A stretch of 64,000 nucleotides of DNA from Escherichia coli 042 (GTDB lineage Bacteria > Pseudomonadota > Gammaproteobacteria > Enterobacterales > Enterobacteriaceae). The stretch's first letter is position 1, and the number at the start of each line of letters is the position of its first letter. Made by a program: the position numbers. Shown here piece by piece: positions 1-3,000 of this stretch. Where the stretch lies: assembly GCF_000027125.1 (NCBI RefSeq), contig NC_017626.1. One strand, 5' to 3'.

Positions 1-3000
1 GTTTTTTGGAGTATCGCCCAAGAAAGTCGGCATTAAGATCAAACTTTGCCACAAAACTTCTTTCATCAGCACCTTTATCTAAATCGACAAAGACATCCAT
101 ATAATAAAGAACTTGCATATCAAACCTCTTAATTCTGTAATTACTTTAAATTATGACAAATAACTTTTGTGCTGAATTAGCTTTATGGTAGTTGACAATA
201 AAATAATTTTACATTGCAGATACATCAACACATAAAAATACTACGGGAAGAACAAAATATTGTAGTTTCAAATAATAAATTGGTGGGAATAACTCCGTCT
301 ATTAACTTCGCCATTAACATTAATTCAAATATTAATGTCATTTATTACAATTACTTTAAAGTTTATAACTGTTATCTTTCTCATATTTCTTTCTAATAGA
401 GTAAATTTCTGCAGCTAACTGGAAATCATCAACAGTATCAATATCGACCGTTGCTGTATTAGAAACATATAAATAAGGGTTTACGCCTATATGGTACTTA
501 TATGTTTCAATTGTTTCTCTTTTAAGTATAAAACAAGACCATAACACCTCATACCATGATGGTAAATTTTGTGAGACTTTATGCCAATACCCGAAAGAAT
601 AATTTAATGGGTTCCCTGATGCATCGATTAAATGTCCTTTATATTTTTTGACAGCAACCATAGAATCAAACTCATTCCTAATTGATTCCCATTCTTTTAT
701 CATGCAGGAGAATTCATTAAACAATGGGTTGGTCACTTGAACCCACATAATATCATCATTATCATTGCTATTTTTATTTATATCGTTAAGAATACCTCCA
801 ATTAATTCTGGTTGTTTAATCTCATTACCAGTTAATCTTTTATCTCGAAGTAAAAAGTTCACTCCTTTCTCATCACACATACGTTCAACTTCTTGAGCTT
901 CAGATGATATATATATTGTTTCTGGTTTAATACCAGAATTAAGGAGCTGTTCTATTTTTATATCAAACAAAGACATTCCATTATAAAATGGAATTATGTT
1001 TTTCTTTGGTACGCGTGTCGAGCACGTTTGGAGTGGGATAATAACTTTCATGTCTAATCCTTTTCGCTTTTTCTATTTAACTCTTAATAAGATTAATAAA
1101 TCTTTATATTCTGTTAATTGGTTATGCCAGATATTTTTAGACGAAGATATTTTGATCTTTTTTATACTCATCCACCCCTTCCTGAACATCCTCATAAAAA
1201 CCAACCGCATTATCGTCTTTAAACACAATCGCCACATCACAAAACTCTTTCAATGAATTCAAACTATGTGAAACCATTAAAAAACTAGATTCTTTATGCC
1301 TTTCTTTAAACAATTGAGCGCATTTTTCTTTAAACCTGGCATCACCGACTGCGGTTACTTCATCGACGATATAATAATCAAACTTAAATGCCATGCTTAA
1401 ACCAAAGCCTAAACGCGATCGCATACCAGATGAGTAAGTTTTAATCGGCATATCGAAGTACTTACCGAGTTCGGCAAATTCTTCGACAAACTCAATTTTC
1501 TCTTTCAGCTCTTCTTGCTTCGCGTATAACCGCGCAACAAATTTTACGTTTTCGCGTCCGGTTAAACTTCCCTGAAATCCACCTGCAAGGCCGACTGGCC
1601 ATGATATCGTTTTATTGGTGATGATCTTTCCACTGTCGGGGCGGTCAATGCCGCCAATCATTCTCAGTAACGTTGATTTACCCGCACCATTACGACCAAT
1701 AAAGGCAACACTTTTTCCTGAAGGAATTTCGAGGTTTAAATCCTTAAACACATAGTGTCGCCCCGTTGGCGTGCGATATGACTTCGTCAAATTCTCAATC
1801 TTAATCATGATGTCAGCATTGCCTCTTCACGCGTTCGGTATAACGCCAGACCGATGAACAGGGTGACCAGAGTGAACATTGCCAGGTAGTTCAGACTCAC
1901 GCCTTCGCTGATATAGCCAGGCATAACTGCCTCGCGGCTTAACTCCACGACATGCACTAATGGGTTCCAGAGTAGATATGACCAGTATTGCTTTGGAATC
2001 GAGTGTAGAGGGAACATGATGCAGGAGATGAAATACAGCGGCTTAAGCAGTATCGGCAGAACCTTTTGCATTTCGGGGAAAGTTTTACCAACGACCATGA
2101 ATATTAAACCGACGCCACATGAAAGAATGATCAGCAGGCTCCAGGTAGCCACAAGTTGTAAAAAATTTGTTATCTCGAAATATTCGCCTGCCATCCAGAC
2201 AATGAGCATAAGCAGAATATAAACAGCAACGTAAATCAGTGTCTCAAGCAGTGCGCGTGCAATGATCGTATCGATGGGTTTTACTGGTCGATAATTAAAC
2301 AGCCCCTGATTCGCTTCAATAGCACCTACAGAACGATTGCTGATACTGCTAAAGATAAAAAAGGGAATCAGGCCATTAAGTAAAAACACCGGGAATGAGA
2401 TGTCTGGCATCGTGCGGTGCATAATGTAACCAAAAATGCCCAACAGTATCAGCAAATGCGCAGAGGGTTCGAGAATCGCCCACAAATATCCCAGACGGAA
2501 CTTACCAAAGCGTGTTCGTATTTCTCGTAGAAATAATGCCTCTACGGTGACTTTCTGGACTTCAAATCCACTTCTTGCCATTTGATGATGTGATCCTAAT
2601 CTCTTCAGGTACGCTACCGCCCTTGGCTTAACAGCTACCAATACACTGGAGGTAATGCTTATTTGTAACTGGATAAAATTTACTCAGACGGTTTGACCTT
2701 TTTAATAGCCGCAAAAAATTTCAGCAGAAATTATTTCCGCAGGGATAAATAGATCTATTTCCGTCTCGTTTCTTCTAATCCATTCTTCAGGCATGAATGT
2801 ATTCGGTCTTCTGGTAATTTCAGAAAACTGGCCGTTTTAGAATGTAGAGTTAATTTCCCAGGAAATTATTTTTTGTTATTACTGTTAACTACTTGATTAT
2901 AATACCCCCATGGATTTTATGCGTAACAATACCTGCAATCTGTTTCAAACCAGAACGCACGCGATTGATTACCAATAAATTGTTCACCGAGAAACTATTT

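What the first reader, a model, noticed from the sequence alone, without database searches (positions are those of the whole stretch)
1..1136. Low-GC capsule region-2 genes including an atypical cytidylyltransferase-like protein
The first 1.1 kb is about 30% GC, far below the rest of the window, and encodes a 231-aa protein whose N-terminal motif (PLQTCSTRVPKKN) is a degenerate form of the CMP-sugar synthetase signature. Region-2 genes define the K serotype, so this divergent enzyme may mark an unusual capsule chemistry.
Basis: partly seen in the sequence, partly recalled or inferred. Interest (0 to 1): 0.45.

Follow-up and report, generated by a model that had tools for sequence, protein, structure and literature searches.

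The report
Extra cytidylyltransferase in furanose-Kdo capsule loci
The low-GC left end of the window is the start of the serotype-specific part of a rare E. coli capsule gene cluster (K74/K95 group), and its 231-aa gene is an intact, divergent sugar-activating enzyme that probably supplies the unusual five-membered-ring form of the sugar acid Kdo found only in these capsules.

Summary
Bases 1-1136 are 29.8% GC against 51.3% for the window. They carry a 231-aa ORF (356-1051, minus strand) whose residues 6-18 are PLQTCSTRVPKKN, plus the first 39 codons of a 1112-aa polymerase gene. This is region 2 of an E. coli group-2 kps locus, directly downstream of kpsM-kpsT.

The protein is a cytidylyltransferase of the NeuA/PseF/KdsB superfamily. 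Its AlphaFold model has pLDDT 94 and TM 0.78 to CMP-Kdn and CMP-NeuAc synthetases. The catalytic Lys-Asn, Arg, QxTxP and DxD residues are kept. Omega is 0.05-0.15. It fails the curated cut-offs for PseF and KdsB.

The three-gene region 2 occurs in 13 of 5426 complete E. coli genomes. It matches the published K74/K109/K95 loci; K135 carries the cytidylyltransferase and polymerase without the acetyltransferase. The window fits K74 best. K74 and K95 are the only E. coli capsules reported with furanosidic Kdo. Kdo-pyranose/ribose types such as K13 lack the gene. Homologues elsewhere sit next to Kdo-transferase-like genes, and in two loci they sit alongside a canonical KdsB.

My best reading, not tested biochemically, is a dedicated CMP-Kdo synthetase that makes the furanose-form donor. 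The gene is already catalogued, and was noted in EAEC 042 in 2010, but its function is uncharacterised.

The parts
356..1051 (-). 231-aa divergent cytidylyltransferase gene, the first gene of region 2 (equivalent to K74_9 / K95_9 / K109_9; homologue of Ec042-3238)
   Evidence: ORF. Pfam PF02348 scores 29.5 bits and PseF TIGR03584 46.9 bits over the full length. AlphaFold pLDDT is 94 and Foldseek gives TM 0.78 to CMP-Kdn/NeuAc synthetases. Omega is 0.045-0.15.
1..118 (-). First 39 codons of the 1112-aa capsule polymerase gene, cut by the window edge. The protein has an N-terminal KpsC/KpsS-like Kdo-transferase-like domain followed by a HAD phosphatase and a PRPP-dependent ribofuranosyltransferase.
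   Evidence: Sequence. The full gene is at L001 16780-20118. Residues 451-1022 match Bcs3 (E 4e-18). The N-domain aligns to KpsC/KpsS by hhalign with probability 96.7.
119..355 (.). AT-rich 237-nt spacer between the cytidylyltransferase and polymerase genes. It ends with an AAGAGG ribosome-binding site 6 nt before the polymerase ATG.
   Evidence: Read. No terminator-like site was found here. The K109-type loci have an indel in this stretch, because the match splits into 2 pieces.
1052..1136 (.). 85-nt spacer between the kpsT stop codon and the cytidylyltransferase start codon. It holds the AAGGA ribosome-binding site.
   Evidence: Read. No terminator-like site was found.
1137..1808 (-). kpsT, the ABC transporter ATPase of region 3
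1805..2581 (-). kpsM, the ABC-2 permease of region 3. The annotated start is used; the longer TTG ORF reaching 2641 is an over-extension.
   Evidence: NCBIfam KpsM scores 187.7 bits. RefSeq CDS is at L001 21805-22581.
2610..2648 (-). JUMPstart element with the ops site GGCGGTAG (2614-2621). [quoted passage not shown]
   Evidence: Rfam RF01707 scores 58.5 bits. The role is stated for the homologous 042 locus in PMC2808357.

Best explanation
The 231-aa gene encodes an active CTP-dependent cytidylyltransferase of the CMP-ulosonic-acid-synthetase superfamily. It sits on the NeuA/PseF-like branch, not the KdsB branch. It is co-transcribed with kpsMT as the first gene of region 2 of a K74-type capsule locus (K74/K109/K95/K135 set).

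Shown:
- the fold
- retention of the catalytic residues
- purifying selection
- membership of this locus type
- restriction of the gene to that locus type in E. coli

Inferred: its substrate is Kdo. These capsules contain only ribose, Kdo and O-acetyl groups, region 2 has no sugar-synthesis genes, and homologues elsewhere are coupled to Kdo-transferase-like genes and Kdo-precursor genes.

Further inferred, and the least certain step: it activates the furanose tautomer of free Kdo to give a CMP-Kdo-furanose donor. KdsB and KpsU instead take the beta-pyranose form. The N-terminal Kdo-transferase-like domain of the adjacent polymerase would then alternate this donor with PRPP-derived ribofuranose to build the Ribf/Kdof polymer, which the WcbI/hexapeptide protein O-acetylates.
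For: Fold and catalytic residues.
- The AlphaFold model has pLDDT 94. The best Foldseek matches are CMP-Kdn synthetase 9t4z, CMP-NeuAc synthetases 6ifd and 1eyr, and CMP-Pse synthetase 9ftc, at TM 0.74-0.78. KdsB and KpsU come second at TM 0.61-0.70.
- Across 110 homologues S11, K17, N18, R69 and P109 are invariant. R13, D203, D205, W156, H157, S160 and Q161 are at least 90% conserved.
- Omega is 0.045-0.15 between locus variants, similar to kpsT.

Locus type.
- Region 2 has three genes: the cytidylyltransferase, a 1112-aa polymerase and a 530-aa WcbI/hexapeptide protein.
- This matches the K74/K109/K95 loci of PMC13171606, and the same 231-aa protein recurs at about 97% identity in K74, K109, K95 and K135. 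K135 has no gene aligned to the acetyltransferase in the published comparison.
- The pairwise identities fit window = K74. The polymerase is 85.0% identical to variant C, against the published 85.3% for K74-K109. The cytidylyltransferase is 97.8% against 97.845%. The acetyltransferase is 97.0% against 96.987%.

Link to chemistry.
- K74 and K95 are the only E. coli capsules reported with beta-furanosidic Kdo (PMC12887879; PMC7387560).
- K13 (Ribf/Kdo-pyranose) region 2 holds only a transposase, vatD and krkA.
- The gene is found in only 13 of 5426 complete genomes, even with distant blastn.

Non-redundancy with KdsB.
- The locus already has KpsU.
- The Aeromonas and Enterovibrio capsule loci carry both a canonical KdsB and this protein.

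Coupling to transferases.
- The gene abuts or overlaps a KpsS-like gene in Aeromonas and Enterovibrio, the fused polymerase in Avibacterium and in contig L016, and WaaZ_KDO_III-like genes in three LPS-core clusters.
- L016 encodes KdsA, KdsC and KpsF but no KdsB, so this protein is the only cytidylyltransferase in that cluster.

The cytidylyltransferase stays at 96-98% identity across the E. coli locus variants while the polymerases diverge to 74-85%. That fits a shared donor with variable linkages.
Against: - No biochemical data exist for any member of the family.
- The ring form of the product cannot be read from sequence.
- The furanose assignments for K74 and K95 come from 1985-1988 NMR work. 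The 2026 mass-spectrometry re-analysis does not distinguish ring forms.
- K109 and K135 have no determined structure.
- The family also occurs in LPS-core clusters, where I know of no report of furanosidic Kdo.
- Kdo genes are common in ABC-type capsule loci because of the poly-Kdo linker, so part of the co-occurrence is trivial.
- CMP-Kdo is labile, so a transferase-coupled extra synthetase could exist simply to channel ordinary CMP-Kdo.
- The protein is structurally closer to nonulosonic-acid synthetases than to KdsB.
Confidence: 0.45

Rival explanations
1. It is a redundant or channelling CMP-beta-Kdo-pyranose synthetase. On this view it is a non-orthologous replacement of KdsB that arrived with the horizontally acquired cassette. 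It simply raises or channels the supply of ordinary, labile CMP-Kdo to the polymerase, and the ring form is set elsewhere.
For: - Contig L016 encodes KdsA, KdsC and KpsF, and this protein is the only cytidylyltransferase in the cluster.
- In Avibacterium the cassette is KpsF, cytidylyltransferase, polymerase and WcbI, with no KdsB in the locus.
- E. coli group-2 loci already tolerate a duplicate synthetase, KpsU.
- The cassette is foreign: it is 29% GC, and the closest full module is in the Pasteurellaceae.
Against: - This does not explain why the gene is confined in E. coli to the furanose-Kdo locus set and is absent from K13-type Ribf/Kdo-pyranose loci.
- It does not explain why the Aeromonas and Enterovibrio loci keep both KdsB and this protein within 10 kb.
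- It does not explain why the protein is so far from KdsB. The KdsB models score about 15 bits against cut-offs of 193-255, and hhalign matches only the N-terminal half.
- No ring-contracting enzyme is evident in region 2.
Confidence: 0.25
2. It activates a different ulosonic acid, such as a nine-carbon sugar like Neu5Ac or Kdn, or a modified Kdo. The real K74-type polymer would then contain a component missed in the published structures. This is essentially the 2010 reading of Ec042-3238.
For: - The best structural and sequence matches are CMP-Kdn, CMP-NeuAc and CMP-Pse synthetases.
- Distant family members (36-39% identity) sit beside NeuB-like synthase and HAD phosphatase genes.
Against: - Region 2 has no NeuB/NeuC-type or other sugar-synthesis gene.
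- K74 and K95 are described as Kdo-containing, furanosidic-Kdo capsules, and mass spectrometry found Ribf-Kdo repeats in the related types that were tested.
- Close homologues sit with KdsA and KpsF, not NeuB.
- The curated PseF cut-off is missed by a wide margin.
Confidence: 0.1
3. It is not a nucleotidyltransferase. It could be a GT-A-like glycosyltransferase, a CMP-sugar-binding accessory subunit of the polymerase, or a decaying pseudo-enzyme whose altered N-terminal motif has abolished catalysis.
For: - The first Arg of the PARGGSK motif is Gln here, and it is Gln or Lys across the family.
- One homologue is named 'glycosyltransferase family protein' by NCBI.
- The Pfam match covers only residues 3-73.
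Against: - The catalytic Lys17-Asn18, Arg69, Gln105-x-Thr-x-Pro109 and Asp203-x-Asp205 residues are conserved across 110 sequences.
- Arg13 occupies the STR position seen in KdsB.
- Strong purifying selection (omega 0.05-0.15) rules out decay.
- The whole fold superposes on cytidylyltransferases.
Confidence: 0.05

Closest known systems
CMP-nonulosonic-acid synthetases (NeuA of N. meningitidis 1EYR and V. cholerae 6IFD; CMP-Kdn synthetase 9T4Z; CMP-Pse synthetase PseF/9FTC)
   Same: Same fold over the whole length (TM 0.74-0.78). Same size, about 220-230 aa. Shared K-N, R, QxTxP and C-terminal DxD residues. The PseF model aligns over residues 4-218.
   Different: Only 16-22% identity. It scores 46.9 bits against the PseF cut-off of 205.7. 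The first Arg of the P-loop-like motif is Gln. The 'PRSQDLP' sugar-pocket and dimer segment is replaced by a family-specific 'GxWHKVSQxLP'. No nonulosonic-acid synthesis genes lie nearby, and the genomic partners are Kdo genes.
CMP-Kdo synthetases KdsB and KpsU
   Same: Probably the same substrate family (Kdo) and the same chemistry. The 'STR..P.K' form of the N-terminal motif resembles KdsB (PARYxSTRLPGKPL). Both occur in capsule loci.
   Different: hhalign matches only residues 1-113. NCBIfam KdsB models score about 15 bits against cut-offs of 193-255. Structural fit is poorer, with rmsd mostly 6-7 A. It co-exists with KpsU or KdsB in the same locus. I propose that it takes the furanose tautomer rather than the beta-pyranose tautomer.
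Ec042-3238 of EAEC 042, and K74_9 / K95_9 / K109_9 / K135_8 of the 2026 E. coli K-locus catalogue
   Same: The same gene or near-identical alleles (about 97% amino-acid identity between catalogue entries), in the same three-gene region 2.
   Different: These records only annotate the gene, as 'CMP-NeuNAc synthetase-like' or 'cytidylyltransferase domain'. None of the papers I could read links it to furanosidic Kdo.
KrkA (GT140) system of E. coli K13/K20/K23
   Same: A single polymerase of about 1100 aa fuses a Kdo transferase to a ribofuranosyltransferase-phosphatase. It makes a Ribf-Kdo capsule with a separate acetyltransferase.
   Different: K13 has no extra cytidylyltransferase and makes beta-Kdo-pyranose. 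The K74-type N-domain gives no PDB sequence match, although I did not check that the PDB copy holds KrkA. In the hhalign alignment it has N and L in place of the Q and nucleophilic D of the QxxxD motif.
UDP-galactopyranose mutase (Glf) route to furanose donors (from general knowledge, not tested here)
   Same: It solves the same problem, which is providing an activated furanose donor for a polysaccharide.
   Different: Glf contracts the ring on the nucleotide sugar using flavin. The route proposed here selects the furanose tautomer of the free keto-acid at the activation step, and no mutase gene is present in region 2.

Membership tests
Cytidylyltransferase family PF02348 (CTP_transf_3; CMP-ulosonic-acid synthetases) | Pfam model at or above the gathering score | tested here: met
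   29.5 bits against a cut-off of 22.6, E 8e-7, but only residues 3-73 align.
Cytidylyltransferase family PF02348 (CTP_transf_3; CMP-ulosonic-acid synthetases) | N-terminal P-A-R-x-x-S-K/T-R-x-x-x-K-N nucleotide-binding motif with the catalytic Lys | tested here: inconclusive
   The Lys17-Asn18, Ser11 and Arg13 positions are kept and are invariant or near-invariant. The first Arg is Gln8 here, and is Gln or Lys across the family.
Cytidylyltransferase family PF02348 (CTP_transf_3; CMP-ulosonic-acid synthetases) | Internal Arg, QxTxP and C-terminal DxD (metal-binding) residues | tested here: met
   R69 and P109 are invariant and D203 and D205 are at least 90% conserved in 110 sequences. The QVTNPL segment aligns to QATSPF of PpNeuA. 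The equivalence of DxD to the Mg site of NeuA rests on published NeuA structures recalled from memory.
Cytidylyltransferase family PF02348 (CTP_transf_3; CMP-ulosonic-acid synthetases) | Alpha/beta nucleotidyltransferase fold | tested here: met
   The AlphaFold model has pLDDT 94 and pTM 0.89. Foldseek gives E 1e-15 and TM 0.78 to 9t4z and 6ifd.
Cytidylyltransferase family PF02348 (CTP_transf_3; CMP-ulosonic-acid synthetases) | CTP + sugar acid -> CMP-sugar + PPi activity | not testable with these tools
   Needs an enzyme assay.
PseF, pseudaminic acid cytidylyltransferase (TIGR03584 equivalog) | Score at or above the curated equivalog cut-off, with pse biosynthesis genes in the neighbourhood | tested here: not met
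   46.9 bits against 205.7. No pse genes lie in the locus.
KdsB/KpsU, CMP-Kdo synthetase (NF003952, NF009905) | Score at or above the curated cut-off, with full-length homology | tested here: not met
   15.2 and 15.6 bits against cut-offs of 193 and 255. hhalign matches only residues 1-113. Structural rmsd is mostly 6-7 A.
NeuA, CMP-Neu5Ac synthetase | Close sequence homology, with neuB and neuC in the same region 2 | tested here: not met
   PDB NeuA hits are at E 6e-5 and 0.67. Region 2 has only three genes, none of them NeuB or NeuC.
E. coli group-2 capsule region 2 gene | Lies between kpsS and kpsT, is co-directional with kpsMT, lies downstream of a JUMPstart/ops element, and has atypically low GC | tested here: met
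   No terminator-like site lies between kpsT and the gene.
K74/K109/K95/K135 K-locus set (PMC13171606) | Region 2 = 231-aa cytidylyltransferase + about 1112-aa polymerase +/- 530-aa WcbI acetyltransferase, at the published identities | tested here: met
   Gene sizes and domains match K109_7, K109_8 and K109_9. The identity pattern fits K74 for the window. The reference sequences themselves could not be fetched, so the exact K type is inferred.
Retaining beta-Kdo transferases (GT99/GT107/GT140), for the partner polymerase N-domain | QxxxD motif with the nucleophilic Asp, plus the HP CMP-binding motif | tested here: not met
   hhalign gives probability 96.7 to KpsC/KpsS. Q156 aligns to N227 and D160 to L231, and HP aligns to H264-S. 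Q156, D160, H194 and P195 are invariant in the 11 KpsC/KpsS sequences. This rests on alignment only.

The most novel reading that the evidence does not exclude
This family is the first CMP-Kdo-furanose synthetase. It would generate an activated furanosyl donor by selecting the furanose tautomer of free Kdo at the nucleotidylation step, with no pyranose-furanose mutase. It would act together with a KpsC-like transferase domain that has lost the nucleophilic Asp and so probably works by a different, possibly inverting, mechanism. The same donor might also be used by WaaZ-like enzymes to decorate LPS cores in other Proteobacteria.
Probability: 0.4. Interest if true: 0.75.

Novelty: new variant of a known kind. 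Interest (0 to 1): 0.5.

Why it matters
Nothing in the searchable library explains how furanosidic Kdo gets into K74 and K95 capsules. If this enzyme makes a CMP-Kdo-furanose donor, it would be a new nucleotide sugar and a mutase-free route to furanose donors. It would also explain why these K loci carry a second cytidylyltransferase beside KpsU. The gene would then serve as a sequence marker for predicting furanose-Kdo glycans in E. coli (K109 and K135, which have no determined structure), and in Avibacterium, Aeromonas, Vibrio and some LPS cores. In practice it would allow enzymatic synthesis of these polymers, as has been done for Hib and K13. If the enzyme only duplicates KdsB, the finding is an ordinary region-2 accessory gene.

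Tried and rejected
- PDB sequence search with the polymerase N-domain (residues 1-450) found nothing even at E 10. I therefore could not relate it directly to KrkA GT140, WbbB or KpsC by sequence. hhalign against a KpsC/KpsS alignment built here did find the relationship.
- Literature searches for Kdo-furanose biosynthesis ('Kdof', 'furanosidic Kdo', 'Kdo furanose') returned only structural mentions and Bordetella anhydro-Kdo artefacts.
- The Gladstone K-locus paper does not mention K74, K95 or the gene.
- The K74, K95 and K109 reference sequences (GCA_900636275, GCA_977947145, GCF_000264195) are not in the searchable collections. Looking up the exact polymerase gave 445 blocks of public assemblies but no reference accession. 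The K type therefore rests on matching published pairwise identities.
- The V. vulnificus 399-aa neighbour could not be shown to be a Kdo transferase (E 0.012 and 0.041, probability below 4%).
- The Helicobacter homologue P0071 had no contig on record.
- I rejected a sialic-acid or nine-carbon sugar role, the 2010 suggestion for the 042 homologue, because the locus has no synthesis genes and the K74/K95 composition does not include one.
- I rejected a pseudogene or decayed motif because of family-wide conservation and omega of 0.05-0.15.
- I rejected the small plus-strand ORFs 214-396 and 765-896 as spurious overlaps in AT-rich sequence.
- I did not run the large genome-contig scan. Eleven contexts from exact-protein look-ups seemed enough.
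Full report
**Observation**

The first 1136 bases of the window are 29.8% GC against 51.3% for the whole 64 kb. The first 1-kb block is the lowest of all 64 blocks.

On the minus strand there is a 231-aa ORF at 356-1051 that begins MKVIIPLQTCSTRVPKKN. It has a good ribosome-binding site (read). Bases 1-118 are the first 39 codons of a much larger gene that runs off the window.

To the right lie kpsT (1137-1808), kpsM (1805-2581) and a JUMPstart/ops element at 2610-2648. Beyond them are the gsp type II secretion operon and sslE. No terminator-like site separates kpsT from the ORF. The ORF is therefore the first region-2 gene read from the RfaH-dependent region-3 promoter. 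That arrangement is described for the homologous EAEC 042 locus (PMC2808357).

**The whole locus**

The stretch is 100% identical to E. coli AF40 (NZ_OZ547043). Only 13 of 5426 complete E. coli genomes carry it, even with distant blastn.

In AF40 the locus reads kpsFEDUCS, then region 2 on the opposite strand, then kpsT and kpsM. Region 2 has three genes:
- a 530-aa WcbI + hexapeptide acetyltransferase
- a 1112-aa 'hypothetical protein'
- the 231-aa 'cytidylyltransferase domain-containing protein'

Region 2 is 29.4% GC.

Residues 451-1022 of the 1112-aa protein match Bcs3 of H. influenzae type b, in its HAD phosphatase and PRPP-dependent ribofuranosyltransferase part (E 4e-18). Its N-terminal domain is related to the KpsC/KpsS Kdo-transferase family (BLAST E 3e-11 to an Aeromonas PF05159 protein; hhalign probability 96.7).

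**Which K type**

[quoted passage not shown] The 231-aa protein is about 97% identical among the four.

The 13 complete genomes fall into three polymerase variants. The window's variant is 85.0% identical to variant C and about 81.5% identical to variant B. B and C are about 78% identical. The published values are 85.3% for K74-K109 and 78.6% for K109-K95. The cytidylyltransferase identities (97.8% here, 97.845% published) and the acetyltransferase identities (97.0% here, 96.987% published) agree as well.

The consistent assignment is C = K109, B = K95 and the window = K74. I could not fetch the reference sequences, so this is an inference, at roughly 0.7 confidence.

**What the protein is**

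Sequence searches:
- Pfam CTP_transf_3 matches residues 3-73 at 29.5 bits, above its cut-off of 22.6.
- The PseF equivalog model aligns over residues 4-218 but scores only 46.9 bits against a cut-off of 205.7.
- The KdsB models score about 15 bits against cut-offs of 193-255.
- The best PDB sequence hit is a CMP-Kdn synthetase at E 6e-5. That alignment shows IPARGGSVSIPRKN against IPLQTCSTRVPKKN, and QATSPF against QVTNPL.

Structure:
- An AlphaFold model built on 110 homologues has pLDDT 94.
- It superposes best on CMP-Kdn, CMP-NeuAc and CMP-Pse synthetases, at TM 0.74-0.78 and 16-22% identity.
- KdsB and KpsU come second, at TM 0.61-0.70 and rmsd mostly 6-7 A.
- hhalign finds KdsB similarity only in the N-terminal half.

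Conservation:
- Across the family S11, K17, N18, R69 and P109 are invariant.
- R13, D203, D205, W156, H157, S160 and Q161 are at least 90% conserved.
- The residues used for catalysis in this superfamily are therefore kept.
- The first Arg of the canonical motif is Gln, or Lys in distant members.
- The canonical 'PRSQDLP' segment is replaced by 'WHKVSQxLP'.

Between the E. coli locus variants the gene has omega 0.045-0.15 at dS 0.11-0.21. That is as constrained as kpsT, and none of the substitutions touches a conserved site.

The motif is thus the signature of a distinct, functional subfamily and not a degenerate remnant.

**Genomic company elsewhere**

The family has at least 118 members of 217-231 aa in Aeromonas, Avibacterium, Vibrio, Enterovibrio, Cycloclasticus, Pseudothauera and many metagenomes. 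The contexts I examined were these:

| Source | Locus | Context |
|---|---|---|
| Avibacterium | L006 | Same module: KpsF, cytidylyltransferase, 1102-aa polymerase, WcbI. GC is 26%. The proteins are 70%, 58% and 52% identical to the E. coli ones. A plausible donor lineage. |
| Metagenome contig | L016 | Cytidylyltransferase, 1106-aa polymerase and WcbI, followed by KdsA, KdsC and KpsF. No KdsB. |
| Aeromonas veronii, Enterovibrio | L004, L009 | The polymerase is split into a KpsS-like protein and a ribofuranosyltransferase directly after the cytidylyltransferase. A canonical KdsB lies a few kb away in the same cluster. |
| V. vulnificus | L007 | A Wza/Wzc-type locus with a KpsF-like gene and KdsA. 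|
| Three beta/gamma-proteobacterial contigs | L010, L014, L015 | The gene abuts a WaaZ_KDO_III-like gene inside an LPS-core cluster. |
| Distant members (36-39% identity) | L011, L017 | They follow WaaA, and in L011 they precede a NeuB-like synthase and a HAD phosphatase. |

In all but the V. vulnificus locus, where the neighbour could not be identified, the partner is a transferase for Kdo-type sugars.

**Mechanism**

According to two independent papers (PMC12887879; PMC7387560), K74 and K95 are the only E. coli capsules in which Kdo is furanosidic. The many Ribf/Kdo-pyranose types use the same kind of fused polymerase. K13, the one whose region 2 is listed gene by gene, has no cytidylyltransferase. 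No other complete E. coli genome has a DNA-level homologue.

Four observations point the same way:
- Region 2 here contains no sugar-synthesis genes.
- The locus already supplies ordinary CMP-Kdo through KpsU.
- Two other genera keep both KdsB and this protein in one cluster.
- The protein is 96-98% conserved across locus variants whose polymerases have diverged to 74-85%.

The most economical reading is that this enzyme makes a Kdo donor different from the KdsB product, namely CMP-Kdo in the furanose form, by taking the furanose tautomer of free Kdo. From general knowledge, free Kdo in solution is a mixture of pyranose and furanose forms, and KdsB uses only the beta-pyranose (Kohlbrenner and Fesik 1985, cited).

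The partner N-domain keeps the His of the HP CMP-binding motif. However, it aligns N227 and L231 to the Q and nucleophilic D of the QxxxD motif, which are invariant in the 11 KpsC/KpsS sequences I aligned. This suggests a mechanism other than the double displacement of retaining beta-Kdo transferases. [quoted passage not shown]

How firm each step is:
- The fold, conservation, selection and locus correlation are shown.
- The Kdo substrate is a well-supported inference.
- The furanose product is a hypothesis that I put at about 0.4-0.45.

**Rivals**

- The main rival is a redundant or channelling synthetase for ordinary, labile CMP-Kdo (about 0.25). L016 and Avibacterium fit it. The restriction to furanose-type loci and the co-occurrence with KdsB do not.
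[quoted passage not shown] The locus has no synthesis genes for one and the reported compositions do not include one.
- A non-catalytic or glycosyltransferase role is unlikely (about 0.05).

**Novelty and verdict**

The gene is not new as a sequence. It is in RefSeq, in the 2026 K-locus catalogue, and its 042 homologue was commented on in 2010. Its function is uncharacterised, and I found no paper in the searchable library that connects it to furanosidic Kdo.

I rate it a new variant of a known kind of enzyme. Interest is moderate. It would be high for capsule biochemists if the furanose-donor hypothesis holds, because it turns an old structural curiosity into a simple enzyme experiment.

Noticed in passing
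L001 19090-19460 (polymerase residues about 220-340); the gene's first 39 codons are window 1-118: The N-terminal Kdo-transferase-like domain of the K74/K95/K109 polymerases aligns to KpsC/KpsS. It has N227 and L231 where those enzymes have the invariant Q and nucleophilic D of the QxxxD motif. The Aeromonas and Enterovibrio homologues have QxxxY. The His of the HP motif is kept. This hints at a non-double-displacement mechanism.
   Followed up: partly
L010 9048-10663; L014 7046-8669; L015 7184-8663: In three beta/gamma-proteobacterial contigs a close homologue (55-57% identity) of the cytidylyltransferase abuts a WaaZ_KDO_III-like gene. The pair sits inside an LPS-core cluster with heptose genes, Kdo-kinase-family genes and an EptB-like gene. 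This implies an uncharacterised core decoration that needs its own CMP-sugar.
   Followed up: partly
L011 5262-12339; L017 3378-9193: Distant family members (36-39% identity) on contigs that also carry Por_Secre_tail genes lie in a conserved run. The run is radical-SAM/SPASM, aminotransferase, GT9 heptosyltransferase, WaaA, cytidylyltransferase, then (seen in L011) a NeuB-like synthase and a HAD phosphatase. It looks like a pathway for a modified ulosonic acid on the LPS core.
   Followed up: no
L003 (NZ_CP116169) 6887-29125: In strain DETEC-P1056 the K95-type kps locus is not next to the gsp operon. It lies between IS66, IS91 and IS1 remnants and a tyrosine recombinase, beside the ula/yjf genes. 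The whole capsule locus has therefore moved to another chromosomal site.
   Followed up: no
window 2582-2648: The mechanical ORF list extends kpsM to a TTG at 2641, which would overlap the JUMPstart/ops element (2610-2648). The RefSeq start at 2581 avoids this and is the credible one.
   Followed up: yes
window 2800-3400: A second low-GC stretch (0.30-0.32) lies upstream of kpsM, between region 3 and yghD. It is presumably the region-3 promoter and long 5' leader, so low GC in this window is not confined to region 2.
   Followed up: no
window 22357-22578; 47812-47888; 58858-58928: Rfam hits above the gathering score: C0719 sRNA (297 bits) and two naRNA4/REP-type elements. Two further ops-like GGCGGTAG octamers at 43389 and 50517 are within chance expectation.
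   Followed up: no
L001 3690-6040: An IS66-family element (ISEc22) sits about 850 bp upstream of kpsF in the genome that is identical to the window, at the edge of a CP4-57-like island remnant carrying antirestriction and cbtA/cbeA genes.
   Followed up: no
L004 11897-15181; L009 11907-15204: The Aeromonas and Enterovibrio loci encode two ribofuranosyltransferase-related proteins (707/713 aa and 367/387 aa). The shorter one matches only the C-terminal part of the longer (E 1e-16 to 1e-22). This may reflect a two-ribose repeat like that reported for K74.
   Followed up: no
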